Source: Bacteroidaceae bacterium
GTDB taxonomy: Bacteria > Actinomycetota > Coriobacteriia > Coriobacteriales > CADBOM01
NCBI GenBank assembly: GCA_963624975.1
Contig: CAVFRF010000046.1
Coordinates: forward strand, 2,923-66,922
Direction: 5' to 3'
Length of the DNA stretch: 64,000 nt
A program made the translations under genes and the position numbers. The notes beneath the pieces were generated by a model. It was not told the DNA's origin. It made no database searches and saw only the letters and a program-made list of their open reading frames with translations. Of this stretch, positions 27,903-62,114 are shown piece after piece (position 1 is the stretch's first letter; every line of letters starts with the position of its first letter).

Positions 27903-28433
27903 TTACAGCTCGATTCCCTTTCGAGCCTTGATGCCCTGGTCGAAGGGGTGCTTGTGCTTCTTCATCTCGGTGATGTAGTCTGCATGCTCGAACACCCACT
28001 CCGTGGGCTTGTGGCCTGTGATCACCAGCTCGAGACCATCGGGCTTCTCGCACACAACTTTGTGGAAGAGGTCGTCGTCCAGCACGTCTAGCTGGTATGC
28101 ATCGAGCACCTCGTCGAGGATGAGCAGGTCGCACTCCCCCTCCTCAACGAGCTTCATGGCTTCCTCGAGATGCGAGTCGTGGATTCGCTTGGTCTCGGCA
28201 ATCTGCTCGGGAGTCATGTCCTTCACGAAGCAAGGTGCCGCAGTACCTCTGATCACCTTCACGTTGTCTAGCTTGGCAAACTGGGTAAGCTCGCCGGTCT
28301 GCATGTCCTTGAGGAACTGCAGGATCACAACTTTTAGGCCGCGACCGCTGGCACGCACTGCAAGCCCCAGAGCCGCCGTGGTCTTGCCCTTGCCGTATCC
28401 GTAGTAAACGTGAATCAGTCCCTTGCCCTTCAT
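27903..28433 (-). CDS. cobO: Cob(I)yrinic acid a,c-diamide / cob(I)alamin adenosyltransferase (CobO/BtuR type)
   Basis: 176 aa from ATG 28433 (GGAGG 7 nt upstream). P-loop YGYGKGKTTAALG, ILDE, and the C-terminal HPFD.G..ARKGIE typical of CobO. The track ORF is extended upstream to 28565. Confidence 0.85.
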   Translation of the reverse strand: MKGKGLIHVYYGYGKGKTTAALGLAVRASGRGLKVVILQFLKDMQTGELTQFAKLDNVKVIRGTAAPCFVKDMTPEQIAETKRIHDSHLEEAMKLVEEGECDLLILDEVLDAYQLDVLDDDLFHKVVCEKPDGLELVITGHKPTEWVFEHADYITEMKKHKHPFDQGIKARKGIEL

Positions 28434-28524
28434 ATGGAGGCCTCCTTTGTTTGGTTTTCCGCGCATCCATGCTCGCGATTGGGCTATATTCGAATATGTA
28501 TAATTTCCCACCGAAAGGCATCTA

Positions 28525-29148
28525 ATGCAAGTCGCTTTGATAAGACATGGACAAATTCCCGGCAACGTCGAACGCCGCTATGTTGGAACCACGGACGAGT
28601 CGCTCACGGAAATCGGGAGGCAGCAGGCTTCGAGCTTGGCGGCTCCCGAAGCCAACAAGGTGTTTGCAAGCCCCTACAAGCGCTGCATCGAGACTGCCAA
28701 GCTTGTATATCCTCCGCTAGAGCCAACGATAGTCGATGGACTCAAGGAGATGGATTTCGGGCTTTTCGAAAACAAGAGCGCCGACGAGATGGTGAATTTC
28801 AAGCCGTATCGCGACTGGGTCGATGGCATGTGCATGGGCAAGATTCCCGAAGGAGAGTCGCGAGAAGAGTTCGACGAGCGAGTTTGCGCGGCTTTTGTGA
28901 GGATAGTCGAAAAGTGCAGGCACAGCGACAAGATAGCTCTCGTGGTGCATGGTGGCACCATCATGTCGATCATGGGTGCCTTCAACGACGAGGGCAAGAG
29001 CTACTTCGAGTACCACGTAGGCAACTGCGGCACGATAGTGTGCAATCTCGATAGAGCTGGCACGAGTGCGGGCGACGGCCACAGGAGGGGTTACGTGCTG
29101 CACCGAATCGACGGCGGCTCCACGAAGGGCACGTTGCCGCCAAAGTAA
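28525..29148 (+). CDS. Histidine phosphatase family protein (possible alpha-ribazole phosphatase CobC)
   Basis: 207 aa with the RHG catalytic motif (LIRHGQIPGN) and a later HGG. Its divergent pairing with cobO suggests CobC, but the specificity is inferred. Confidence 0.6.
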   Translation: MQVALIRHGQIPGNVERRYVGTTDESLTEIGRQQASSLAAPEANKVFASPYKRCIETAKLVYPPLEPTIVDGLKEMDFGLFENKSADEMVNFKPYRDWVDGMCMGKIPEGESREEFDERVCAAFVRIVEKCRHSDKIALVVHGGTIMSIMGAFNDEGKSYFEYHVGNCGTIVCNLDRAGTSAGDGHRRGYVLHRIDGGSTKGTLPPK

Positions 29149-50810: not shown

Positions 50811-51620
50811 CTACTCTTCGGGCTTCACGGGGAACAGCCCGGCCTTGTAGGCCCTGAGATAGGCTCCGCAATAGGGGTCGACGCCCATAAGAGCCGTGGT
50901 GGCGTGCATCGTGGCCAGCATATCCTCGCTCATGGAGTCCATGATGGCGCTGTCCATGCCAGCCTGCATGGTGAGCGACAGGAACTGCGTGTTGATGGCC
51001 TTGCGGTACGGCATGCCAAACGAGATGTTGGAGAGTCCCGAGGTAATGTGCACGTCGGGATACTCGGCCTTGATGCGATGGATGGTCTCGATGAAGCTCA
51101 CCATCGACTGCTGGTTGGTGGCCAACGTGGTCACAAGCGGGTCGATGAGGATGTTGTCGTGCGGAATGCCGTAGGCCTCGGCCCTCTTGATGATCTCTTT
51201 GGCGATGTCGAACTTGGTGGCCGGGTCGTCCGGGATTCCGTTGGTGTCGCAGGTAAGCGCCACGACCTTCCAGTCGGTTCCCTGGATGGCCGGCAGCACG
51301 GTCTCGCACTTGCCCTCCTCGAGGGAGATGGAGTTCATGCATCCCACCTTGTTGGCCATTGGCATGCACTTGACGATAACCGAGGGGTCGGGGCTGTCGA
51401 TGCACAGCGGAGTGTCCACGGTGTCCTGCACCAGGTTGATGAGCCACTCCATGACCTCCATCTCCACGTCGGGCTTGACGCCCGCGCACACGTCGATGTA
51501 GGTGGCGCCGCCGTCGGCCTGGCCCTTGGCGATGTACTTGATGTAATCGTCGTCCCTGGCCTCGATGGCAGCCAGGGTCTTGGGGATGAAGCCGTTGATC
51601 TTCTCGCCGATGATAATCAT
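50811..51620 (-). CDS. Methyltetrahydrofolate:corrinoid methyltransferase (pterin-binding TIM barrel, MtgA/MtqA/AcsE-like)
   Basis: 269 aa from ATG 51620 (AGGAGG RBS). It shows IIIGEKINGF, YIDVCAG, PLCIDS, NSISLEE and LSNISFG, the pterin-binding/MeTr pattern. Confidence 0.8.
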   Translation of the reverse strand: MIIIGEKINGFIPKTLAAIEARDDDYIKYIAKGQADGGATYIDVCAGVKPDVEMEVMEWLINLVQDTVDTPLCIDSPDPSVIVKCMPMANKVGCMNSISLEEGKCETVLPAIQGTDWKVVALTCDTNGIPDDPATKFDIAKEIIKRAEAYGIPHDNILIDPLVTTLATNQQSMVSFIETIHRIKAEYPDVHITSGLSNISFGMPYRKAINTQFLSLTMQAGMDSAIMDSMSEDMLATMHATTALMGVDPYCGAYLRAYKAGLFPVKPEE

Positions 51621-51777
51621 TTCCTTACCTCCTGTCGTTGTGGCTGAGGCAGATGCCTTTCGCATCTACGCCAGCTCCGGTTCCAGTCCAACAAACAATG
51701 CGCTACCTCTTGACCGCCTATGAACTCGCCTTCTCGCGCGTCCGGCCGTGCCTTCGCACGAGAAGGCGCTTGCCACC

Positions 51778-53805
51778 CTAGTCGTTGAGCGTCATTCCCC
51801 TTCCGCGGGTGTCCACGAAGAAGTGCTCTTTCCTGTCGCCGCGTTCCCACTCGGGCTGCTCGGTTGCGATGGCCTCGATACGGGTCTCGATGTAGATGTC
51901 TTTGTCGCCCGTGCCCGATTGCGCCTGAACGTCCTCGCAGTTGAGCGTGATCTCGATGTTCCTGGCACCGCTTTGCTGCGCAGCCTCGCGGGCCCTGTCC
52001 ACGGCGTACTGCCTGCCATACTCGACGGCGTCTTCGAGACGCTCGAACATCTTCATCTCCCATGCCGAGTGCAGGTTGAAGCCATCGTTGTTCTCGCCGG
52101 GGGTCACAAGGATCTTTACCGACTCGATAACCTTGCCCACTGCCGAGCCTATGGCGTTGGCCACCTCGGAGTTCTCGGGGATGATGAGCTGCGTTCCGAT
52201 GCGCTCGGCAGCGCGGGGCAGCCAGGCCTCGACGGGCGCGCCGATGCCGATGAGAGGAATGTTGGTCTTGATGGAGCAGGTCACGTACTCCCCGGCTCTG
52301 GGATGCAGCTGCTTGGCGAAGAAGTATGCCGCACCCGGGTCTTCCTTGAGATTGAACCTCGCGCCTTCGTGGATAGCCAGGCTCTGGATGCTGCAGTAGC
52401 AAAGCTCGTCGACGATGCGGTCGGCGGCCACGGCTATGAACTCGTCCATCTGCATGTCGAAGCGCTTGGCAAGAAGGCTCACCGCTCGTTTGGATGCATC
52501 GACGTCGAACGTGGAGAGCTTGCCCGCCGCATGCAGGATGTCGGTCGGCGTGACCGAAACCCTGCTCAGCACGCCCACGTTCACGAGCCTGTCGAGGTTG
52601 AGCAGGTTGGGCTCGGCCTCGATGCGCTCGGCGATGGTGAAGAACGTGTGCGGACCATCCTTGACGGCTTCGACCACCTTCTGCTCCGTGGCCGACAGCG
52701 ATGCCGTGGCATGCTTGTTGAGCAGCTTGAAGCAGTCGACCACCTGCACGTAGCGCAGCAGATAGGCGTACGGCACTATGACCCTGCGCAGCTCGTCGTT
52801 GAGATAGGGGAATTCCGATGCCGCCACGCAGATCGGAATCACGCGCTGCGGCCCCACCTGGAGGTTGCGGCCCATATCCATCTGGATGTAGCTGTCGCCG
52901 CCAAGCCCGTAGGTGTTGATCGAGGCGGCCTCCACCTGGGTGAGGAAGCCTCCCACGCGGGCTCCTTCCTCGTCGACCCTGGGCACGCCATCCTTTACCA
53001 CCGCGATGTCGGTGGTGGTACCGCCCATGTCCAGCACGAAGCCGTCCTTCACACCGGACAAGAAGCCCGCGCCTATGATCGAAGCCGCAGGACCGGAGAG
53101 CAGGGTCTCGATCGGCTTCTCCTGCGCCAGCTTCTCGCCCACCAGCGTGCCGTCGCCCTTCACCACCATGATCGGGGCATCCACGCCCTTCTCGTCGAGA
53201 GAAGCGCGCACCGACATCAGCAGTCGCTTGATGATCGGGATGAGCTTGGCGTTGAGCACCGCGGTAACGGTGCGCTCGTGAATCCCGAGCGAGCGCGTGA
53301 GGTGATGGGCGCACACCACTGGCAAGTCCAGCACCTCACGAACTAGCTCTTGCACACGCAGCTCGTGCTCTGGATTGCGCACGCTCAGATATCCCGAGAT
53401 GGCTATCGCGTCTACCTGGCCGCGCATCGACTCCAGCGCCTCGCGCACTGCATCTTCGTCGAGCGGCTCCTTGGCGATGCCCTTCACGTTGTGCCCGCCG
53501 GGCACGACGCGCAGCTCCGAGCACGGGATGTTGCCGTTTGGCTCGAAGCCTATCATCACCAGCCCGACCTCGCAGCCGGCGCCTTCCACGATGGCGTTGG
53601 TGGCGAGCGTGGTCGAAAGCGACACGATCTCGATGCTATCGAAGTCGTCGAACTCCATGCCGTTTATGCAACCGATGATGCCCCGGCTCAGGTCGTCGCG
53701 CGTCGTGAGGCTCTTGGCCTTCGCAAGCACCTTGCGAGCCGACCTGTCGATCACCACTCCGTCGGTATAGGTGCCACCTGTATCGATCCCAAGTACCAAC
53801 GACAT
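51778..53805 (-). CDS. Hydantoinase/oxoprolinase (HyuA-type) ASKHA-fold ATPase family protein, orphan (no HyuB partner)
   Basis: 675 aa. The N-terminal phosphate-1 motif LGIDTGGTYTDGVV and the second motif VLDMGGTTTDIAVV are typical of the Hydantoinase_A family. No Fe-S-type cysteine cluster is present. Confidence 0.75.
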   Translation of the reverse strand: MSLVLGIDTGGTYTDGVVIDRSARKVLAKAKSLTTRDDLSRGIIGCINGMEFDDFDSIEIVSLSTTLATNAIVEGAGCEVGLVMIGFEPNGNIPCSELRVVPGGHNVKGIAKEPLDEDAVREALESMRGQVDAIAISGYLSVRNPEHELRVQELVREVLDLPVVCAHHLTRSLGIHERTVTAVLNAKLIPIIKRLLMSVRASLDEKGVDAPIMVVKGDGTLVGEKLAQEKPIETLLSGPAASIIGAGFLSGVKDGFVLDMGGTTTDIAVVKDGVPRVDEEGARVGGFLTQVEAASINTYGLGGDSYIQMDMGRNLQVGPQRVIPICVAASEFPYLNDELRRVIVPYAYLLRYVQVVDCFKLLNKHATASLSATEQKVVEAVKDGPHTFFTIAERIEAEPNLLNLDRLVNVGVLSRVSVTPTDILHAAGKLSTFDVDASKRAVSLLAKRFDMQMDEFIAVAADRIVDELCYCSIQSLAIHEGARFNLKEDPGAAYFFAKQLHPRAGEYVTCSIKTNIPLIGIGAPVEAWLPRAAERIGTQLIIPENSEVANAIGSAVGKVIESVKILVTPGENNDGFNLHSAWEMKMFERLEDAVEYGRQYAVDRAREAAQQSGARNIEITLNCEDVQAQSGTGDKDIYIETRIEAIATEQPEWERGDRKEHFFVDTRGRGMTLND

Positions 53806-53992
53806 GATCTCTCACTCCTCAAACATGCTTCTCGAACTCCGGCAGCCCTGTGCTGCCCGCTAACCTCTTCGCTTTTCGGGGCTTGCGGAGGGGCTGCGAT
53901 CCGCAGATGCAACCCCTCCGCGCTCTTGTGCTGCTAGCCGCCCCGGGCCTCTCATGACCTTGTGCAAACCCAGCTAGCAGTACAGCCTGGCT

Positions 53993-55471
53993 CTATTCGC
54001 CGGGCATGTGTCCGACGGCGTTCTCAACGATGTCGCGCACCTGGGCTACGACGTCCTTGGGAAGCGGCTTGGCCTCGTGGTTCTCGATGATGTCGCGAAC
54101 CTTCTCGTTGGCCACCTGAGTGAGGCTCTTCGAGCCGGCCTTCTGCCAGATCTCGCGAGCGCCGCGGTTAACCAGGCGGTTCTTGTAGTCCACGCGGCTC
54201 TGCTTGGGAGTGAAGATGCCCTCTTCCTCCTCGATGGGCTCTGCCGGGGAGAACCGTCCACCGGGTCCGACCTTCTCGATCTCTTCGAGGGAGAGGGTCT
54301 CTTCGGTGGTCTGGATGCCGGCCGTGATCCTGCGGGCCATGCCCAGAACCTCGTCGGCGATAACGACCAGGTCGAGGTTGGAGGTGGTGCCGTACTCTGC
54401 ATAGCCGGTGTCGTGGTTGAGGTTTGCACCCGACATGTTGGTCATCGCCATGGAGATGGCGGCCTCGACGCCGGCCTGCTCGTCGATGATGCAGGAGTCG
54501 GTGCAGCCTGCGGTACCGAACATCGGTATGTGCAGGTAGTGGGCCACGTCGGCTAGTCCGGCCAGCAGGATGCTCAGCTCGGGAGCGCCGTAGGAGAAGA
54601 TCGTGGACCCCATGTCGAGCACCGTGTACACGCCGCCCATGATGAACGGGGCGCCCTCGTTGGTGCACTGGCTGAGCACGAGGCCGCTGAGCGACTCGCA
54701 CAGGCCCTGGACCATAACGCCTGCCATAGTCGCAGGTGCGGTTCCGCCTGCCATGATGCAGGGCGTGTAGATGGTGGGCAGGCCCTTCTTGGCGCCGTAG
54801 ACCATCTTCTGCGCTGCCTCGATGCAGTGGACGCCAGGCGAGATGGGCTCGGCGTACAGGCAGATGAACGGGTTGTTGCGAAGCTCTTCCTCGCCGCCAG
54901 CCACGATCTCGGCCATCTTGATGCAGTCTTCCTGACCATACTGGTCGACGCACACCGTGATGATGGGCTTCTCGGTGTTGAGGATCTGCTGCTCGAACTC
55001 ATGACGGTCGGAGATGAGCAGCGGCACGTCCTGCACGATGCCCAGCGACATCGCATAGTCGATGTTGGGCAGCGCGTCGAGAACCTTGGTAGCCCAGCCT
55101 ACGCTCTGACGTGTCGCGCGGTGGCGCTCGCCGGTGTAGGGGTTGCGGGTAAACGGGGTGCACGGGCCGGACCCGAAGTAGGAGTTGCCTCCCTCGAGGA
55201 ACAGCTCGCGCTCGCCGGTCCTGCTGTTGCACAGCACGATGTGCTTCTGGCACGTCTGCAGTGCGCGCTCGGTGATGTGAGCGGGGATGCGGACCCTAAT
55301 TCCGTCTACCGTGCATCCCGCCTTCTTCAGAATCTCGATGGATTCCGGATCATGGAACTCGGTGCCGGTCTTCCACATGGCCTCAGTTGCCGCGAACACA
55401 AGCTCCTGGCACTGGGCCTCGGAGAAGACGTTCATCTTCACACCGGTATTTGCATACAGGTTTGTTCTCAT
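53993..55471 (-). CDS. MttB-superfamily methyltransferase, non-pyrrolysine paralog 1
   Basis: 492 aa, an uninterrupted ORF with no in-frame TAG. Trimethylamine-methyltransferase-family blocks (GGTAPATMAG, YGAPE, GANLNHDTGY, VGPGG). It has an unusual acidic insert, SPAEPIEEEEGIF, after the GPGG motif. Confidence 0.85.
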   Translation of the reverse strand: MRTNLYANTGVKMNVFSEAQCQELVFAATEAMWKTGTEFHDPESIEILKKAGCTVDGIRVRIPAHITERALQTCQKHIVLCNSRTGERELFLEGGNSYFGSGPCTPFTRNPYTGERHRATRQSVGWATKVLDALPNIDYAMSLGIVQDVPLLISDRHEFEQQILNTEKPIITVCVDQYGQEDCIKMAEIVAGGEEELRNNPFICLYAEPISPGVHCIEAAQKMVYGAKKGLPTIYTPCIMAGGTAPATMAGVMVQGLCESLSGLVLSQCTNEGAPFIMGGVYTVLDMGSTIFSYGAPELSILLAGLADVAHYLHIPMFGTAGCTDSCIIDEQAGVEAAISMAMTNMSGANLNHDTGYAEYGTTSNLDLVVIADEVLGMARRITAGIQTTEETLSLEEIEKVGPGGRFSPAEPIEEEEGIFTPKQSRVDYKNRLVNRGAREIWQKAGSKSLTQVANEKVRDIIENHEAKPLPKDVVAQVRDIVENAVGHMPGE

Positions 55472-55483
55472 TTCTGCTTCTCC

Positions 55484-56953
55484 TTATCCAGCCGCATCGA
55501 CTTTGTCGACGATTGCAGCGAACTCCTTGGAGCCGTCCGCCAGAATCGCTGCCTTCTGATACGAGTTGAGCAGGTCCTCGGTCTTGTTGACCGTGCGGTC
55601 GCCCAGCGACAGGGAGCCTTCTGCTGCCCAGTCGTCGATGCGCTTGCGGTTCATGAGCGTGGGCCAGAACTGCTCCGACTTGAAGTAGTAGCGCGTGTGC
55701 AACGTGCCGAGGTAGTGTCCGCCGGGCTCGACCTCGTCGATCACGCCGCGGGCGAGGCGATCCTCGTCCATCTCGACGCCGCGCATGATGCGCCTGGTGA
55801 TGGCCGCCAGCTCATCGGCCAGGGTGAGCAGCATGAGGCTGAACGCGCATCCGCTCTCGACGGTGCCCGCGCCGTGAATCAGGTTGGTGCCCGCAAGGCC
55901 GGCCGTGAGGGTCGACATGGCGGACTCGAGACCTAGCTGGGCATCGGACATCTTGGAGTCGGTGGCTGCCGCGAATCCGAACGAGGGGATGCGCAGGTAG
56001 CGAAGCACTCCGGCGTAGCCGGCGCCGAGGAGGCTCACCTCGGGTGCGCCATAGGGCACCATCTGGTTGTCCACGTCGCAGCTGCCAAAGAATCCGCCGG
56101 TGATGAACGGTGCGCCTTCGGCAACCGCCTGCGACAGCACAAGAGCTGCGATGGAGTTGGCCAGCGCCACGATGAGCACGCCGGCGCTCTCGGAGGGAGC
56201 GGTGTGGCCGGCGATCAGCTCGTTGGAGAACACCACGGGGATGCCCTTCTCGGCTGCAAAGGCCACGATGTCGAGTGCCTCGCCACTGATGAGCAGGCTC
56301 TCGTCGGCTGCCACGTGCAGCACCACGCAGGGATCCCAGCGCAGCTTGTCTTCGGAACCCACGGCCGCGACTGCGAGGTCGTAGACGGCCTTGGCCTGGT
56401 TCATGCACTTCACGTTCTGAACGATCGGCTTGACGGTGGTTTCCAGCAGCGCCTTGAACGCGTGGACCTCGGCGGTCTTCGCCGGCACGTCGGTGGGCAC
56501 GCCGCCCGACATCGCGAAGTCGATTCCGGGAAGGCTGTCGACCAGCATTCCGACCTTCTCCACATCGGCGATCGTGAAGTCGCGAGGTGCCTCGGCATTG
56601 GCGTCCAGAATCTGCTTGCAGGCAAATCCGGGGCCGTAGTGCACGTGGTTGGTCTCGAGGACCATGGCCCTGTTGCCCTCGCGGTCGCAAAGCGTCACGC
56701 GGGAAGGCGCCACGCGCAAAGCCCATTCGCTCTTAGCGGAGGGAATGCGCACGCGGCCTCCCTCGACTCGGCATCCTGCGTCGGCAAAGATCTTGCAGGC
56801 TGCATCGCTCTTCGCCTCGAAGCCGGTCCTCTCGAGCAGCTCGAGCGCCCTTACGAGAACCGCCTCGCACTGGTCGTCTGTCAGCATCTCCCAGTGAAGG
56901 TTCTGCTGAACCTGGAAACCAGCCGTGGTGTACAAACTCTTGGTCCTATACAC
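55484..56953 (-). CDS. MttB-superfamily methyltransferase, non-pyrrolysine paralog 2
   Basis: 489 aa with a GTG start and AGGAGGAG 5 nt upstream. It has the same family blocks (TAPSESAG, YGAPE, GTNLIHGAGT, VEPGGHYLGTLHTRYYF). It is uninterrupted and sits 12 bp upstream of paralog 1. Confidence 0.85.
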   Translation of the reverse strand: MYRTKSLYTTAGFQVQQNLHWEMLTDDQCEAVLVRALELLERTGFEAKSDAACKIFADAGCRVEGGRVRIPSAKSEWALRVAPSRVTLCDREGNRAMVLETNHVHYGPGFACKQILDANAEAPRDFTIADVEKVGMLVDSLPGIDFAMSGGVPTDVPAKTAEVHAFKALLETTVKPIVQNVKCMNQAKAVYDLAVAAVGSEDKLRWDPCVVLHVAADESLLISGEALDIVAFAAEKGIPVVFSNELIAGHTAPSESAGVLIVALANSIAALVLSQAVAEGAPFITGGFFGSCDVDNQMVPYGAPEVSLLGAGYAGVLRYLRIPSFGFAAATDSKMSDAQLGLESAMSTLTAGLAGTNLIHGAGTVESGCAFSLMLLTLADELAAITRRIMRGVEMDEDRLARGVIDEVEPGGHYLGTLHTRYYFKSEQFWPTLMNRKRIDDWAAEGSLSLGDRTVNKTEDLLNSYQKAAILADGSKEFAAIVDKVDAAG

Positions 56954-56998: not shown

Positions 56999-57637
56999 CT
57001 ACTCGACGTTCATCAGCCTCTTGCAGAGGTCGGCTGCCGAAACCGCGTCGGGCGAATAGCCGTCGGCCGTGATCTCGTCGCAGAAGTCCTGCGATACGGG
57101 AGCGCCGCCGATGATGACCTTCACGTCGTCGCGCAGGCCCTCCTCCTTGAGCAGCTCGATGGTGTCCTTCATGTGCAGCATGGTGGTGGTGAGAAGAGCG
57201 GACATAGCCACGATGTCGGGCTTGTGCTCCTTCACGCCCTCGATGAAGGTCTCGGGCGCCACGTCGATGCCTGCGTTGATGACCTTGAAGCCGGCGCTCT
57301 CGAGCATCATGAGCACGAGGTTCTTGCCGATGTCGTGCAGGTCGCCCTTGACGGTGCCCAGGTACACGGTGCCCAGGCTCTTCATGTCGCCAGCTGCGAT
57401 AAGCGGCTTGACGATCGAAACGCCCTTGTCCATGGCCTCTGCCGCCGCGATAACCTCGGGAACGAACACCTTGTTGGCCTTGAACAGCACGCCCACCTCG
57501 GTCATGCCTGCAATCAGGCCATCGTTGATGATCTCGAGCGGAGCCACGCCCTGGTCGAGCAGCTCCTTGCTAAGCTTGTCTGCCTTTACCGCGTTGCCCT
57601 GTACAACAGCCTTCTGCAGATCTTCCATCGTTGCCAT
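56999..57637 (-). CDS. Corrinoid (B12-binding) protein of the MttC/MtgC/MtqC type
   Basis: 212 aa from ATG 57637 (AAGGAGG RBS). It has an N-terminal helical cap and a Rossmann B12-binding domain with the DxHxxG motif (GDLHDIGKN) and SALLTTT. Confidence 0.88.
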   Translation of the reverse strand: MATMEDLQKAVVQGNAVKADKLSKELLDQGVAPLEIINDGLIAGMTEVGVLFKANKVFVPEVIAAAEAMDKGVSIVKPLIAAGDMKSLGTVYLGTVKGDLHDIGKNLVLMMLESAGFKVINAGIDVAPETFIEGVKEHKPDIVAMSALLTTTMLHMKDTIELLKEEGLRDDVKVIIGGAPVSQDFCDEITADGYSPDAVSAADLCKRLMNVE

Positions 57638-57662
57638 AGCTAGCCTCCTTAAAACTGTTTGC

Positions 57663-57728
57663 CTTGCCTTACCGGTCCAACCAACTTGACACTTGCTACT
57701 TGCCACTTGCATGCATTTGCGACTTGCC
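57663..57728. repeat. Heptamer tandem repeat ACTTGNN x4 plus extra CTTGC copies in the BCCT/corrinoid-gene spacer
   Basis: Plus strand: ACTTGAC ACTTGCT ACTTGCC ACTTGCA (57684-57711), ACTTGCC again at 57722-57728, and CCTTGCC at 57662-57668. On the coding (minus) strand these read as GCAAG(T) repeats 45-90 nt upstream of the corrinoid-protein ATG. Confidence 0.8.
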
Positions 57729-57854: not shown

Positions 57855-59459
57855 CTAGGCTCCATCGGGTGCTTCGAGCGCTTCGAGTGTTTCTGGCTCT
57901 TCCGGCACCCTGTCTTTCTTCTTCTTGCGCCGGTCCATTAGCGGAGTTGTGTCTGCATCGGGGTCGAACTCCTGCTTGAGCGATATGTAGATGCCGGCGC
58001 ACATGAATATCAGCACGAATATGAACGGGAAGGCCGCCACCACCGAAGCTGTCTGCAGCGTCTTGAGCGCCGCCTCGCCTCCCGCAAGGATGAGCACGAT
58101 CGTCACGGCTCCCTGTGCGATGCCCCAGAATGCGCGGTACTTCTTGGGCGGATCCATCTCGCCGCCCATCGTGAGCATGGGGAGCACGAATGTCGCAGAA
58201 TCGGCAGCTCCCACGAAGCAGATGAGTACGAGGAACAGAGCCAGAGGTCCGGTGACCTGATACAGCGGCAGCTGCTGGAGCAGTGCGTAGAGCGCCGTGG
58301 TGTAGTCGTTGTTCACAGCGGCCTGGATTGCTCCGCCAGAAGCGGCATCTTGGAAGAAAGCCGCACCACCGTAGATCGTCATCCAGAAGAAGGAGAAGCC
58401 TGCCGGCAGAAACGTTCCGCCCAACACCATCTGGCGCACCGTGCGGCCCCTGGACACTCGGGCAAAGAACTGCCCGCAGAAGGGAGACCATGCGATCCAC
58501 CATGCCCAGTAGAACACCGTCCAGGACGAGAGCCATTCGGGGTCTCCGTACCACAGCGACTGGCCTATGAACGAGGAGATATAGGCTCCGAGGGTGTCGG
58601 TCATGTGCTGCATGATGAACACAAAGCCACCGAACACCAGCAGGAACACCATGAACGCGACTGCCAGCCAAACCTTGATGTTCACGATCTTGGCCATCCA
58701 CTTGTGCAGACCCGAAACCGTAGCCAGGGTAAACACCGCCGTGATGATGCCTATGAGTATCGCCGTGAACGCCGGATTGGTTTCGATAGCCCATATATAT
58801 CCGAACCCGCCGGCTATCTGCAAAGCTCCAAGACCGAGGCTCGTGGATATGCCGAACACCGTGGCGAACACCGAGATGATGTCGACGGTATATCCGATCC
58901 ATCCGTTAACGCGCTCTCCGATGAGCGGGTAGAACGACGAACTGATGAGGAACGGGCGATTCTTGCGGTACTGGGCGTACGCCAGCGCCAGTCCGACCAC
59001 TCCGAACAGCCCCCAGCAGTGCACGCCTTCGTGCATGAACGCGAGCCTCATGCCCGTTCGCATGGCTTCTGCCGTGAAAGGATCGTCCATCGGACCTGTG
59101 GCGTAGTGTATCATCGGCTCCGCAACGGCCCAGAACACTAGACCGATTCCGATTCCGCCACCGAACAGAAGGGCGAACCACTGGAAGTTGCTGAACTCCG
59201 GTTTTTCGTCGTCTCTGCCGAGTCTGATCTTTCCATATTTGGAGATGGCTATTGCCAGTCCAAAGATCAGGAAAGCGAACGTCATTATGAGGTAGAACCA
59301 CCCCAGGTCGTCGCAGAGGAACGAGTTGACTGCGTTCACGCCTACGGCCAGAGCATCCGGAAACACCGCCCCGAAGAGCGTGAATCCGATCACTATGATC
59401 ATAGAGACGATCAGCACGGTCCTGTTCTTGCCGCCCGCTGCGCCATTTGCTCCTGACAT
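57855..59459 (-). CDS. BCCT-family (betaine/carnitine/choline) transporter
   Basis: 534 aa from ATG 59459 (GGGAGGGGG 4 nt upstream; the track start is 59474). It has 12 TM segments and BCCT signatures (FQWFALLFGGGIGIGLVFWAVAEP, WTVFYWAWWIAWSPF). Confidence 0.88.
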   Translation of the reverse strand: MSGANGAAGGKNRTVLIVSMIIVIGFTLFGAVFPDALAVGVNAVNSFLCDDLGWFYLIMTFAFLIFGLAIAISKYGKIRLGRDDEKPEFSNFQWFALLFGGGIGIGLVFWAVAEPMIHYATGPMDDPFTAEAMRTGMRLAFMHEGVHCWGLFGVVGLALAYAQYRKNRPFLISSSFYPLIGERVNGWIGYTVDIISVFATVFGISTSLGLGALQIAGGFGYIWAIETNPAFTAILIGIITAVFTLATVSGLHKWMAKIVNIKVWLAVAFMVFLLVFGGFVFIMQHMTDTLGAYISSFIGQSLWYGDPEWLSSWTVFYWAWWIAWSPFCGQFFARVSRGRTVRQMVLGGTFLPAGFSFFWMTIYGGAAFFQDAASGGAIQAAVNNDYTTALYALLQQLPLYQVTGPLALFLVLICFVGAADSATFVLPMLTMGGEMDPPKKYRAFWGIAQGAVTIVLILAGGEAALKTLQTASVVAAFPFIFVLIFMCAGIYISLKQEFDPDADTTPLMDRRKKKKDRVPEEPETLEALEAPDGA

Positions 59460-59486
59460 TGCGCCCCCTCCCATCTATCTGCTAGT

Positions 59487-59925: not shown

Positions 59926-60882
59926 ATGACTCAAAACGAACTCGACCTCGAGAGAGAAAATCGGGCGGCAATGCCCCAGATATTCGACCGTCTGTGCGTG
60001 GCAGCCAAGCTCATCAACGTAACCATGGATCACGAATGCCTCGTGATCGGGCGATCCAACGGAATCGCCATGGAGATTCCCCCGCACCATCTCGGAAAGT
60101 GCTTTTGCAAGCGCCTGGCCGCCATCAGCGGCGAGAGCATCAACATCGAGCACTTGTTCGAGAAGTCGGCCGACATGAGCGCCAACAGCACGCATCTAAT
60201 ATATACGTGCCCGTTCGGCCTCACCAACATCATGGTTCCGGTGGTCAAGAACGGCCACGTGATGTCGGTGCTGCAGGTTGGCCCCATCCTCACCACTGAT
60301 CCCAACGAGATATTGCAGAAACACGCCCTTTCGCGCAACAACATCGATGCGGCAAGCCTGCACGACTTGAGGGCATATCTGGAGGGACTGCCACATGGCG
60401 ACATCGACTACGTGATGGCGCTTGCCGAGATGGTTACCATCCTCATCGGCGAGAAGGTGGTAGACGTTGCCAACCCGATCGTGAACCTAGAGGAGGTAGA
60501 GCAGCACTCCGCACCCGAGGCGTGTTCTGAGGTCATCGATGCTGCACTCGACTTTATCGACAAGCACTTTACCGACAACGAGATTTCGCTCAACACCGTG
60601 GCGGAGGGCGTGTACGTGCATCCCTCGCATCTTTCGAGGCTGTTCTCCCAGCAGATGAACTGCCGGTTTCGCGGATACATCAACCAGCTCAGGGTCAATC
60701 TGGCATCCAAGTTGCTAACAGAAACAGGCGAGAGCATCAACGACATATGCCACGAAGTGGGCTTTTCGGACCAGTCGTACTTCGTGAAGATCTTCAAGCA
60801 ATACCATGGAGTAACGCCCAGCCAGTACCGCAAGCAGACCACCTACAAGAACGACCCGCTTCCGCGCGACTTCATACCATAG
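59926..60882 (+). CDS. AraC-family transcriptional regulator with N-terminal PocR-type sensor domain
   Basis: 318 aa. The N-terminal half carries PocR-like features (LIYTCPFGLTNIMVPVVKNGHVMSVLQVGP). The C-terminal AraC double HTH includes LNTVAEGVYVHPSHLSRLFSQ and ICHEVGFSDQSYFVKIFKQYHGVTPSQYR. It is divergent from the BCCT operon. Confidence 0.85.
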   Translation: MTQNELDLERENRAAMPQIFDRLCVAAKLINVTMDHECLVIGRSNGIAMEIPPHHLGKCFCKRLAAISGESINIEHLFEKSADMSANSTHLIYTCPFGLTNIMVPVVKNGHVMSVLQVGPILTTDPNEILQKHALSRNNIDAASLHDLRAYLEGLPHGDIDYVMALAEMVTILIGEKVVDVANPIVNLEEVEQHSAPEACSEVIDAALDFIDKHFTDNEISLNTVAEGVYVHPSHLSRLFSQQMNCRFRGYINQLRVNLASKLLTETGESINDICHEVGFSDQSYFVKIFKQYHGVTPSQYRKQTTYKNDPLPRDFIP

Positions 60883-61032: not shown

Positions 61033-61878
61033 CTACTCCACTACCGCCTTGTAGAAATCGTCGAGCCAGCTCTGCTCGAAGCTCTCGATGGCGCCCGCGT
61101 CCACGGCCTTGGCGGCCTGCGGATCCATCGGAAGGCTGGCCTTGTTGGCGATGCCGTACTCCTCGGCGATCTCGTCCAGATGGCTCTCGCCAAAGAGGTC
61201 GATGCGCTTGCCGCAATCGGGGCACACGATGTGGCTCATGTTCTCCACGATGCCCAGCACCGGAACCTTCATATCCTTGGCCATGTTGACGGCCTTGCCC
61301 ACGATCATGCCCACCAGCTCCTGCGGCGACGTTACGATCACGATGCCGTCGATGGGCAGCGACTGGAACACGGTGAGGGCCACGTCGCCCGTTCCGGGAG
61401 GCATGTCCACGAACATCACGTCGATGTCGCCCCACGCGACCTCCGACCAGAACTGCTTGACCACGCCCGCGATGATCGGACCGCGCCAGATCACGGGGTC
61501 GGTGTCGTTTTTGAGCAGCAGGTTGAGCGACATCACCTTGATGCCGCCCTTGGACTCCACCGGCAGCATGTTGCCGTCGACCATCGTGCTCACGTGTTCG
61601 GAGATGCCGAACGCGCGCGGAATCGAGGGGCCGGTGATGTCGGAGTCGAGCACCGCGGTCTTCAGACCCTCGCGTGCGGCCTTGGAAGCCAGCAGCGTGG
61701 TGACCAGCGACTTGCCCACGCCGCCCTTGCCGCTCACAACTCCGATGACCTTCTTGACGCTCGAGCCCTCGGCCAGCGGGGCCTTGGCGTTGCGCATCTT
61801 CTTGAGGTCGGGAATGTTGTACTTGTGCTTGGGCGCGTCTTCCTGCTCGGTGGGCCCGTTCGTGCTCTCGTCTGCCAT
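61033..61878 (-). CDS. Mrp/NBP35 (ApbC-like) Fe-S cluster carrier ATPase
   Basis: 281 aa from ATG 61878 (AAGGAGG RBS). It has the deviant Walker A (SGKGGVGKS) and a CPDCG (CxxC) motif. Confidence 0.85.
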   Translation of the reverse strand: MADESTNGPTEQEDAPKHKYNIPDLKKMRNAKAPLAEGSSVKKVIGVVSGKGGVGKSLVTTLLASKAAREGLKTAVLDSDITGPSIPRAFGISEHVSTMVDGNMLPVESKGGIKVMSLNLLLKNDTDPVIWRGPIIAGVVKQFWSEVAWGDIDVMFVDMPPGTGDVALTVFQSLPIDGIVIVTSPQELVGMIVGKAVNMAKDMKVPVLGIVENMSHIVCPDCGKRIDLFGESHLDEIAEEYGIANKASLPMDPQAAKAVDAGAIESFEQSWLDDFYKAVVE

Positions 61879-62114
61879 CGTGTTCCTCCTTGCATGCGGA
61901 CCGCAGCATGCAGCTATGCGCTGCCTAGCGTGCGGCAATGGGATTGTGTGGTACGTGCAAGATCGAACAGAAGCGGCTAGGGGTGTCCGGCTTCTATCAT
62001 CCGCACTCCATGGTAGCCCCTTTTCGTGCTACTTGCAGTCCGAAAAGCGCGAGTGCGGTCGTCGACGCGCCCGCGTCGACGCGCCCGCGCTGCCAGCACG
62101 GTGCCGCGCCCGGG

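What the first reader, a model, noticed from the sequence alone, without database searches (positions are those of the whole stretch)
51778..53805. Orphan HyuA-like ASKHA ATPase embedded in the corrinoid operon: candidate Fe-S-less reductive activase or chaperone
Known corrinoid methyltransferase systems re-reduce inactive Co(II) with ATP-dependent activases (RamA in methanogens, RACE proteins in bacteria). These combine an ASKHA ATPase with a ferredoxin-type Fe-S domain. The only ATPase in this operon is a 675-aa hydantoinase/oxoprolinase A-family protein (GIDTGGTYTDG and DMGGTTTDIA). It has no HyuB partner anywhere in the window and no Cys-cluster motif, only scattered Cys residues and one CYC. 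A true hydantoinase needs HyuB, so a different role is likely. It could be an ATP-driven activation or repair factor for the corrinoid protein that uses an external electron donor. Alternatively it could act on the substrate itself, for example by ATP-dependent ring opening. Either role would be undescribed for this family in this context. It is also bracketed by 187-bp and 157-bp spacers, each with a strong hairpin.
Basis: inference. Interest (0 to 1): 0.7.

Follow-up and report, generated by a model that had tools for sequence, protein, structure and literature searches.

The report
Partnerless HyuA-like ATPase of B12 operons
A 675-residue ATPase related to hydantoinase subunit A, but lacking the usual B subunit, sits in a vitamin-B12-dependent betaine-type demethylation operon; its relatives almost always lie next to B12-binding proteins, so it is most likely an uncharacterised ATP-driven helper that keeps B12 proteins active.

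Summary
Window 51778-53805(-) encodes a 675-aa ASKHA ATPase (Hydant_A_N plus the first half of Hydantoinase_A). It lies in the operon BCCT, corrinoid protein, MttB, MttB, this gene, methyl-THF methyltransferase. The 64-kb window has no HyuB, RACE/RamA or DUF1638.

The protein belongs to a large HyuB-less subfamily (about 1,400 clusters at 50% identity). Sequence homology to true HyuA stops near residue 322, though the predicted fold is HyuA-like throughout.

Of 42 related loci with at least 3 kb on both sides, 29 have corrinoid-methyltransferase genes within 3 kb. Others sit beside a B12-domain protein plus corrinoid adenosyltransferase, or beside a B12 radical-SAM enzyme. Some members are fused to DUF1638, a domain genetically tied to B12 reactivation. 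Only one of 93 loci has HyuB, and it has its own canonical HyuA.

The best reading is an ATP-dependent maintenance factor for B12-binding proteins. The "replacement for RACE" version is weakened, because RACE is encoded beside it in nine loci. "Fe-S-less" is unproven: three invariant Cys are subfamily-specific.

The gene was drawn as "HydA" in a 2022 paper, but no function was proposed.

The parts
51778..53805 (-). HyuA-like ASKHA ATPase, 675 aa, member of a HyuB-less subfamily associated with B12 proteins
   Evidence: ORF. Pfam Hydant_A_N 5-158 and Hydantoinase_A 178-320. AF2 model pLDDT 82.5. HyuA-like fold over the full length, TMq 0.56-0.59. More than 8000 homologues.
53761..53790 (-). ASKHA phosphate-1 motif, GIDTGGTYTD (residues 6-15)
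   Evidence: D8 T9 G10 G11 T12 are invariant in 35 homologues.
53002..53031 (-). ASKHA phosphate-2 motif, DMGGTTTDIA (residues 259-268)
   Evidence: D259 G261 G262 T263 T264 D266 are invariant.
51778..52842 (-). Subfamily-specific C-terminal half (residues 321-675). No Pfam match and no sequence homology to canonical HyuA.
   Evidence: Pfam covers only residues 5-320. PDB sequence hits stop at residue 321. hhalign to a canonical HyuA ends near residue 322. A search with this half finds 1413 representative clusters.
53806..53992 (-). 187-bp MttB-to-HyuA-like spacer with a 13-bp stem-loop at 53885-53921
   Evidence: MFE -82.5 kcal/mol, z -2.9. No U-tract and not called as a terminator. A strong hairpin occupies the same position in 8 of 10 related loci.
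51621..51777 (-). Spacer between the HyuA-like gene and the methyltransferase, with a 14-bp stem-loop at 51727-51768
   Evidence: MFE -65 kcal/mol, z -3.1. The start of the methyltransferase at 51620 follows the gene calls.
53993..55471 (-). MttB-family (non-pyrrolysine) methyltransferase, 492 aa
   Evidence: Pfam MTTB 1.2e-77. Below the cut-off of the NCBIfam TMA methyltransferase model.
55484..56953 (-). MttB-family (non-pyrrolysine) methyltransferase, 489 aa
   Evidence: Pfam MTTB 1.2e-75.
56999..57712 (-). Corrinoid protein (B12-binding_2 + B12-binding). Gene callers place the start at 57637, giving 212 aa.
57855..59474 (-). BCCT betaine/carnitine/choline transporter
   Evidence: Pfam BCCT 2.9e-168.
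50811..51665 (-). Methyl-corrinoid:tetrahydrofolate methyltransferase (Pterin_bind). Probable start at 51620.
   Evidence: Pfam Pterin_bind. NCBIfam PRK07535, 340 bits against a cut-off of 259.
59926..60882 (+). Divergent AraC-type regulator with a PocR sensory domain

Best explanation
The gene encodes a HyuB-independent paralogue of hydantoinase/oxoprolinase subunit A. This paralogue has been recruited as an ATP-dependent maintenance factor for proteins that carry a B12-binding domain, here the corrinoid protein of an MttB-type quaternary-amine demethylation system.

Proposed mechanism (inferred, not shown): the intact ASKHA nucleotide site binds and hydrolyses ATP. This drives a conformational change in an inactive corrinoid protein, for example one in the Co(II) state or wrongly loaded. 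The cofactor can then be re-reduced by a separate electron-delivering partner (RACE, DUF1638 or ferredoxin) or be exchanged or re-loaded. The subfamily-specific C-terminal half would be the client-binding part.

What is shown: the domain anatomy, the absence of HyuB, the conserved gene neighbourhood, the DUF1638 fusions, and published co-induction of a 56%-identical homologue on glycine betaine. What is inferred: the client, the ATP dependence and the outcome.
For: (1) Anatomy. Both ASKHA phosphate motifs are invariant. The fold is HyuA-like over the full length.

(2) No HyuB. None is found in the 64-kb window or in 92 of 93 loci. The one exception, L018, has its own canonical HyuA (full Hydantoinase_A at 350 bits plus Hydant_A_C) paired with HyuB, in addition to the HyuA-like gene.

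(3) Neighbourhood. The module corrinoid protein, MttB, MttB, HyuA-like is conserved in Eggerthellaceae, Formimonas, Sporomusa, Dehalobacterium, Tissierella and Desulfocicer. Of 42 loci with at least 3 kb on both flanks, 29 have a corrinoid-methyltransferase gene within 3 kb.

(4) The link is to the B12 protein rather than to the substrate. In L008 the gene is paired only with a corrinoid protein. In L031, L062, L071 and L057 it lies with URO-D-type methyltransferases and no MttB. In L019 and L068 it lies beside a 593-aa protein with a mutase-S-like B12 domain, and in L019 it is followed by a CobA/BtuR adenosyltransferase. In L091 and L066 it lies beside a conserved roughly 600-aa ORF, which Pfam shows in L091 to be a B12-binding radical-SAM enzyme; the L066 copy falls in the same ORF cluster.

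(5) Fusions. DUF1638 plus HyuA-like proteins of 859-1016 aa exist. Free-standing DUF1638 genes lie beside the gene in 14 loci, including three of the four related Eggerthellaceae loci recovered (L004, L006 and L007, but not L005). DUF1638 mutants are methionine auxotrophs alongside RamA-like mutants (bioRxiv 10.1101/192971). DUF1638 is induced with the corrinoid glycine betaine system (PMC12478193).

(6) Expression. The Formimonas homologue P0046 lies in the nine-gene glycine betaine cluster that is strongly induced on glycine betaine (PMC9768040).

(7) Precedent, from established knowledge. The other ATP-dependent B12 helpers are also ASKHA-fold ATPases: the RACo/RamA ATPase domain, DdrA/GdrA and EutA. 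Pfam and NCBIfam give weak N-terminal GlmL/MutL matches for this protein.
Against: There is no biochemical or genetic evidence for any member of the family. Guilt by association cannot separate action on the corrinoid protein from action on MttB or on a shared metabolite.

In the closest clade (50% identity or more) the gene almost always follows a tandem MttB pair, which would also fit an MttB-specific role. About nine of 42 well-flanked loci show no B12 gene nearby, although two of those proteins are themselves DUF1638 fusions.

The loci with B12 radical-SAM or adenosyltransferase neighbours are only 36-44% identical to the window protein and could have diverged in function. Whether this genome has RACE, DUF1638 or HyuB elsewhere is unknown. 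In known HyuAB enzymes the A subunit phosphorylates small molecules, so a small-molecule kinase role is not excluded.
Confidence: 0.5

Rival explanations
1. The protein is itself the reductive activase. It replaces RACE/RamA and couples ATP hydrolysis to Co(II)-to-Co(I) reduction using an external donor, without an Fe-S domain of its own.
For: The window and the orthologous Eggerthellaceae loci L004-L007 show no RACE within 10 kb. It is the only ATPase in the operon. DUF1638 fused to HyuA-like resembles the two-part layout of RACE, if DUF1638 with its invariant C14, H42, C72 and C94 carries a redox centre.
Against: A complete RACE gene lies in the same cluster as the HyuA-like gene in nine loci: L012, L016, L018, L057, L067, L071, L077, L084 and L086. 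The two are therefore not alternatives there. In Alphaproteobacteria DUF1638 co-occurs with a RamA-like protein rather than replacing it (10.1101/192971). The rest of this genome could not be searched for RACE.
Confidence: 0.13
2. The protein acts on the small-molecule substrate. It could perform ATP-dependent phosphorylation, or activation or ring-opening of the methyl donor or its product, before or after demethylation by the MttB pair.
For: In acetone carboxylase and related enzymes the HyuA-type subunit holds the nucleotide site where substrates are phosphorylated (established knowledge for the family; PDB 5svb and 5m45 were matched). In the closest clade the gene always follows the same tandem MttB pair. 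L018 places canonical HyuAB next to such a cluster.
Against: The family also sits beside corrinoid proteins with no MttB, beside URO-D-type systems, beside a B12 radical-SAM enzyme, and beside a mutase-like B12 protein with an adenosyltransferase. These share the B12 domain but not a substrate. DUF1638 fusions occur in housekeeping contexts. No hydrolytic HyuB partner is present.
Confidence: 0.12
3. The protein is an assembly or maturation chaperone specific to the tandem MttB pair, for example one that forms or remodels an MttB heteromer or its complex with the corrinoid protein.
For: MttB is the nearest recognised upstream gene in about 31 of 89 loci. The two-MttB arrangement is conserved in all close relatives.
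Against: The pairing with only a corrinoid protein in L008, and the many loci without MttB but with other B12 proteins.
Confidence: 0.1
4. The protein is an ordinary hydantoinase/oxoprolinase A subunit whose HyuB partner is encoded elsewhere in the genome.
For: Pfam Hydant_A_N and Hydantoinase_A exceed their gathering scores. The closest solved folds are N-methylhydantoinase, caprolactamase and acetone carboxylase.
Against: HyuB is absent from the 10-kb flanks of 92 of 93 loci. Where HyuB does occur, a canonical HyuA accompanies it. The C-terminal 350 residues have no sequence homology to HyuA. No Hydant_A_C match is found.
Confidence: 0.03

Closest known systems
RACE / RamA reductive activases of corrinoid enzymes (COG3894; Pfam Fer2 + Raco_middle + RACo_C_ter)
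   Same: An ASKHA-fold ATPase encoded in corrinoid methyltransferase clusters. The presumed client is the corrinoid protein.
   Different: It has no Fe-S domain and no Raco_middle or RACo_C_ter match. It belongs to a different ASKHA family (HyuA). It is often encoded alongside a RACE gene rather than instead of one.
ATP-dependent reactivases and accessory proteins of adenosylcobalamin enzymes (DdrAB/GdrAB, EutA, GlmL/MutL)
   Same: ASKHA ATPases placed next to their B12 enzyme. Locus L019 has the classic layout of B12 enzyme, ATPase, adenosyltransferase. There is a weak N-terminal GlmL/MutL match.
   Different: Full-length membership is not met: only about 50 residues match MutL, at 27.6 bits. 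In the window the client is a methyl-transfer corrinoid protein, not a radical enzyme. Cofactor exchange was not demonstrated.
Hydantoinase/oxoprolinase/acetone carboxylase A-type subunits (HyuA, CapA, ApcA/C, AcxA)
   Same: Residues 5-320 are homologous (PDB hits 1e-34 to 1e-13). The overall fold matches.
   Different: There is no HyuB partner. The C-terminal half is unrelated in sequence. C46, C78 and C165 are subfamily-specific. The neighbours are B12 proteins rather than amidohydrolase or carboxylase subunits.
DUF1638 plus RamA-like B12 reactivation pair of split methionine synthases (Price et al. 2018) and MecG/MecH of the mec cassette
   Same: DUF1638 is fused to, or adjacent to, members of this family. 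The setting is a corrinoid methyltransferase in both cases.
   Different: In those systems the ATPase partner is RamA-like, not HyuA-like. The window operon itself has no DUF1638.

Membership tests
Hydantoinase/oxoprolinase subunit A (HyuA) | Hydant_A_N and Hydantoinase_A domains above Pfam gathering scores | tested here: met
   109.8 and 113.3 bits against cut-offs of 25.2 and 22.9. Hydantoinase_A covers only profile positions 1-145 of 291.
Hydantoinase/oxoprolinase subunit A (HyuA) | Complete Hydantoinase_A core plus the Hydant_A_C C-terminal domain | tested here: not met
   No match beyond residue 320. The canonical HyuA in L018 scores 350 bits over profile positions 1-290 and also matches Hydant_A_C. 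The predicted fold is nevertheless HyuA-like throughout.
Hydantoinase/oxoprolinase subunit A (HyuA) | An adjacent or fused HyuB (Hydantoinase_B) partner | tested here: not met
   No HyuB in the window in six frames or in 92 of 93 loci. The rest of the genome was not available.
Hydantoinase/oxoprolinase subunit A (HyuA) | ATP-dependent hydrolysis or carboxylation activity | not testable with these tools
   Requires an enzyme assay.
RACE / RamA reductive activase | RACo_C_ter ASKHA domain and Raco_middle domain | tested here: not met
   No such Pfam hit at E <= 0.01. Genuine RACE proteins from L012 and L067 score 258 and 199 bits.
RACE / RamA reductive activase | Fe-S domain ([2Fe-2S] Fer2 or 2x[4Fe-4S]) | tested here: not met
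   No Fer2 or Fer4 domain and no CxxC-type cluster motif. Dispersed conserved Cys (C78, C165, C358) leave a non-canonical site untested.
RACE / RamA reductive activase | ATP-dependent Co(II)-to-Co(I) reduction of a corrinoid protein | not testable with these tools
   Requires spectroscopy with purified proteins.
GlmL/MutL-type accessory protein of B12 mutases | Full-length match to PF13941 / NF040745 | tested here: not met
   Only residues 5-53 match. The scores are 27.6 bits (Pfam cut-off 27) and 26.7 bits (NCBIfam cut-off 475).
B12-associated HyuA-like subfamily (defined here) | Length of about 650-700 aa, HyuA N-terminal half, and the subfamily-specific C-terminal half | tested here: met
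   Full-length homologues at 35-85% identity. A search with the C-terminal half finds 1413 clusters, most of 640-700 aa.
B12-associated HyuA-like subfamily (defined here) | Encoded beside a protein with a B12-binding domain, or fused to or beside DUF1638 | tested here: met
   The window has the corrinoid protein two genes upstream. The same holds for 33 of 42 well-flanked relatives when the B12-domain, radical-SAM and fusion cases are counted.

The most novel reading that the evidence does not exclude
The HyuA-like ATPase, together with DUF1638 (encoded separately or fused), forms a previously unrecognised and widespread class of ATP-dependent B12 reactivase or cofactor-handling machine. It would serve methyl-transfer corrinoid proteins, B12 radical-SAM enzymes and adenosylcobalamin-type enzymes alike. 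It would act alongside or upstream of RACE, for example by opening the B12 domain for reduction, exchange or repair of the cofactor. Its subfamily-specific Cys residues might form a new metal or redox site.
Probability: 0.3. Interest if true: 0.8.

Novelty: new variant of a known kind. Interest (0 to 1): 0.62.

Why it matters
MttB-family and other corrinoid methyltransferase systems control how gut and sediment anaerobes consume betaines, carnitine and choline. That consumption affects trimethylamine and methane production.

This is a large uncharacterised ATPase family, about 1,400 clusters at 50% identity. It is embedded in these operons, fused to DUF1638, and also found next to other classes of B12 enzymes. 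It would give a concrete, testable candidate for a missing B12-protein repair or loading step. It would also correct thousands of "hydantoinase/oxoprolinase" annotations.

Tried and rejected
- The genome-contig scan was run with the single protein and returned only four close Eggerthellaceae loci.
- A structure prediction of DUF1638 was confident (pLDDT 94.1), but Foldseek found no significant PDB match (best E 4e-3, TM below 0.3). Its fold gave no functional clue.
- Model coordinates are not exposed, so I could not test whether C46, C78, C165 and C358 cluster in space.
- Rfam found no riboswitch or known RNA in the operon spacers. The only hit was PYLIS_3 inside an MttB coding region.
- The consensus scan did not call the spacer hairpins as terminators.
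- Literature searches combining hydantoinase or oxoprolinase with corrinoid, MttB, reactivase or cobalamin found only Holland 2022, which does not discuss the gene's function.
- MecG/MecH of the mec cassette were checked as possible relatives. MecG is described only as a protein with a domain of unknown function whose organisation, with MecH, matches the B12-activation pair of Price et al.; MecH is a RACE. Neither is HyuA-like.
- The "genuine HyuA with a distant HyuB" reading was rejected on the HyuB searches.
Full report
**What is there.** The window comes from an Eggerthellaceae metagenome-assembled genome (GCA_963628975.1) with about 62% G+C. On the minus strand lies an operon-like row of genes:
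- a BCCT transporter (57855-59474);
- a corrinoid protein with B12-binding_2 and B12-binding domains (56999-57712);
- two MttB-family methyltransferases without an in-frame amber codon (55484-56953 and 53993-55471);
- the gene in question (51778-53805, 675 aa);
- a Pterin_bind methyl-corrinoid:tetrahydrofolate methyltransferase (50811-51665).

An AraC/PocR regulator is divergent upstream.

The 675-aa protein matches Pfam Hydant_A_N (residues 5-158) and the first half of Hydantoinase_A (residues 178-320, profile positions 1-145 of 291). It has a marginal GlmL/MutL match at the N-terminus, and nothing is recognised after residue 320.

I scanned most upstream proteins of the window against Pfam. 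The scan found RsgA, TrkH, purine nucleoside phosphorylase, an amino-acid ABC transporter, BirA/BioY, a CobA/BtuR adenosyltransferase and others. The AddAB, ATP-synthase, RF1 and DUF1385 genes were left out of the scan and recognised by reading. No Hydantoinase_B and no RACo domains appeared.

Profiles built from neighbours of relatives (RACE, DUF1638, CobW, URO-D and a 228-aa family) hit nothing in six frames of the window beyond the six operon genes. A genuine HyuB, found later in locus L018, gave no phmmer or tblastn hit in the window. So "no HyuB in the window" and "no RACE in the window" are confirmed. The rest of the genome could not be examined.

The spacers are 187 bp and 157 bp, the latter only if the methyltransferase starts at 51620. 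Each holds a long perfect stem, and the whole-spacer folding z-scores are about -3.

**The Cys residues.** The "no Fe-S" statement needs a caveat. There is no cluster motif. However, C78 and C358 are invariant, C165 is present in 33 of 35 homologues, and four further Cys columns are 26-31 of 35. C46, C78 and C165 align with G, A and L in a canonical HyuA.

**The family.** The protein has more than 8000 database relatives. The best 120 are full-length (622-693 aa, nearly all above 650) and 52-100% identical. They come from Eggerthellaceae, Formimonas, Sporomusa, Dehalobacterium, Desulfosporosinus, Zhaonella, Tissierella, Syntrophaceticus and others.

Sequence comparison with solved structures (caprolactamase, N-methylhydantoinase, acetophenone and acetone carboxylases) and with a canonical HyuA aligns only residues 5 to about 322. 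The AlphaFold model (pLDDT 82.5) nevertheless superposes on those HyuA-type subunits over the whole length, with TMq 0.56-0.59.

A search of 1.84 billion representatives with the C-terminal 354 residues alone found 1413 clusters (941 at E <= 1e-10). Among the full-length hits listed, most are 640-700 aa; many others are shorter fragments. This is therefore a distinct, sizeable subfamily of HyuA-like proteins.

**Neighbourhoods.** Seven look-ups of exact homologues returned the window's own contigs plus six further loci. Five of those six show the same core, corrinoid protein then MttB then MttB then HyuA-like, usually with a Pterin_bind methyltransferase and BCCT transporters. They come from Formimonas, Sporomusa, Dehalobacterium, Tissierella and Desulfocicer. 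The sixth, the second Formimonas copy, is paired only with a divergently transcribed corrinoid protein.

A metagenome scan with the family alignment returned 80 further loci at 35-57% identity. I clustered all ORFs within 7 kb of the anchor gene, annotated the recurrent clusters with Pfam, built HMMs from them and re-scanned all loci. The recurrent neighbours are:
- MttB;
- corrinoid protein;
- Pterin_bind methyltransferase;
- URO-D-type methyltransferase;
- DUF1638;
- RACE;
- a CobW-type GTPase;
- a 228-aa family with a faint MetH activation-domain match;
- GntR regulators;
- BCCT transporters.

Of 42 loci with at least 3 kb on both sides, 29 have a corrinoid-methyltransferase gene within 3 kb.

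I then examined the 13 loci with no such neighbour:
- L019 and L068 have an adjacent 593-aa protein with a mutase-S-like B12-binding domain. In L019 a CobA/BtuR adenosyltransferase follows directly.
- L091 has an adjacent B12-binding radical-SAM enzyme.
- The HyuA-like protein of L070 is itself fused to DUF1638.
- The remainder lie in unrelated housekeeping contexts.

Two less well-flanked loci extend these cases: L066 carries a homologous roughly 600-aa ORF in the L091 position (same ORF cluster), and L046 is a second DUF1638 fusion.

No locus has HyuB except L018. There, a canonical HyuA (full Hydantoinase_A at 350 bits plus Hydant_A_C) and HyuB sit next to a separate HyuA-like gene within an MttB, corrinoid-protein and DUF1638 cluster.

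**Fusions.** Six representatives of 859-949 aa and two metagenome ORFs of 982 and 1016 aa carry an N-terminal DUF1638 domain joined to the HyuA-like protein. Free-standing DUF1638 genes flank the gene in 14 loci, including three of the four Eggerthellaceae orthologous operons.

DUF1638 has published genetic links to B12. In Phaeobacter inhibens its mutants, like those of a RamA-like protein, are rescued by methionine, and the two genes have nearly identical phylogenetic profiles (bioRxiv 10.1101/192971). In Ruegeria pomeroyi it is induced together with the corrinoid glycine betaine system (PMC12478193). MecG of the dichloromethane mec cassette, described there as carrying a domain of unknown function, shares with the RACE protein MecH the domain organisation of that B12-activation pair (10.1101/2021.08.30.458270).

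DUF1638 has invariant C14, H42, C72, D93 and C94. Its predicted alpha/beta fold is confident but has no solved relative.

**Interpretation.** The common denominator of the neighbourhoods is a protein with a B12-binding domain. It is not a particular substrate, and it is never a HyuB. This pattern and the DUF1638 fusions point to an ATP-dependent accessory role directed at B12 proteins. The L019 layout (B12 enzyme, ATPase, adenosyltransferase) and the fact that the known ATP-dependent B12 helpers (RACo/RamA, DdrA, EutA) are ASKHA ATPases (established knowledge) point the same way.

Published proteomics show that the Formimonas cluster containing homologue P0046 is strongly induced on glycine betaine. 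The authors listed the gene as "HydA" and did not discuss it (PMC9768040).

I therefore favour a maintenance factor, meaning a reactivase, chaperone or loading aid for the corrinoid protein. The mechanistic details are inferred.

A complete RACE gene lies in the same cluster in nine loci. At least in those organisms the HyuA-like protein does not replace RACE. The substrate ring-opening alternative fits poorly with the substrate-independent association. It cannot be excluded for the closest clade, where the gene always follows the same tandem MttB pair.

**Spacer hairpins.** A strong stem-loop (-20 to -30 kcal/mol within 50 nt) occupies the MttB-to-HyuA-like spacer in 8 of 10 related loci examined. 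The sequences differ, and several are followed by U-runs. This conservation of position suggests a partial terminator or a transcript-stabilising element. Such an element would separate the abundant catalytic genes from the downstream accessory genes. That would fit a sub-stoichiometric helper, but it is only an inference.

**Novelty and limits.** Searches of the held literature found no functional proposal for this family. The kind of thing, an ASKHA ATPase serving a B12 protein, is known. The family, its HyuA ancestry, its DUF1638 fusion and its breadth of B12 clients are not. Everything functional here rests on gene context, domain fusion and one published proteome. No activity was measured.

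Noticed in passing
window 55867-55968 (-): Rfam PYLIS_3 (pyrrolysine insertion sequence of mttB) matches at 45.3 bits, above its gathering score of 38. The match lies inside the first MttB gene, which has no in-frame amber codon. It probably reflects coding-sequence homology around the position that holds pyrrolysine in true MttB.
   Followed up: partly
window 53885-53921 (-); L004, L006, L007, L009, L011, L012, L013 and L016, in the MttB-to-HyuA-like spacers: A long GC-rich stem-loop sits between the second MttB gene and the HyuA-like gene in most relatives. The sequences differ, and some are followed by a U-run. It may be a leaky internal terminator or an mRNA stabiliser.
   Followed up: partly
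window 53993-56953 (-), and the same position in L004-L013 and L016: Two paralogous non-Pyl MttB genes in tandem are conserved directly upstream of the HyuA-like gene across distant taxa. This suggests a heteromeric methyltransferase or a two-step one, for example betaine then dimethylglycine. The substrate is unknown, and NCBIfam names neither protein.
   Followed up: no
L018 3687-7482 and 7551-13813: A canonical HyuA+HyuB pair lies immediately upstream of an MttB, corrinoid protein, HyuA-like, methyltransferase and DUF1638 cluster, behind a sigma-54 regulator. This may link hydantoin or creatinine-type degradation to corrinoid demethylation.
   Followed up: partly
L019 8203-12513; L068 5750-9224: An uncharacterised 593-aa protein has a C-terminal mutase-S-like B12 domain and no recognisable N-terminal domain. 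It is adjacent to the HyuA-like gene in both loci, and in L019 a CobA/BtuR adenosyltransferase follows. Aminotransferase, aldehyde dehydrogenase and AFOR genes lie nearby. It may be a new B12 enzyme with its own reactivase.
   Followed up: partly
L012 2299-2985, L013 13568-14254, L016 3789-4475 and seven other loci: A conserved 228-aa protein family has no Pfam domain, only a faint MetH activation-domain match (E 4e-4). It recurs next to RACE, URO-D and CobW genes in these clusters.
   Followed up: partly
L007 13164-13844, and alignment A2: DUF1638 has invariant C14, H42, C72, D93, C94 and W121. Its predicted alpha/beta fold is very confident (pLDDT 94) but has no significant match in the PDB.
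   Followed up: yes
window 27903-28565 (-) and 28525-29148 (+): A CobA/CobO/BtuR-type corrinoid adenosyltransferase and a histidine-phosphatase (CobC-like) gene lie about 23 kb from the operon. This shows the organism handles corrinoids.
   Followed up: no
window 61033-61938 (-): A ParA/Mrp(ApbC)-type ATPase gene (PF10609, PF01656) sits just beyond the AraC/PocR regulator of the operon. The same position is seen in the identical contigs recovered for this sequence. No link to the operon was tested.
   Followed up: no
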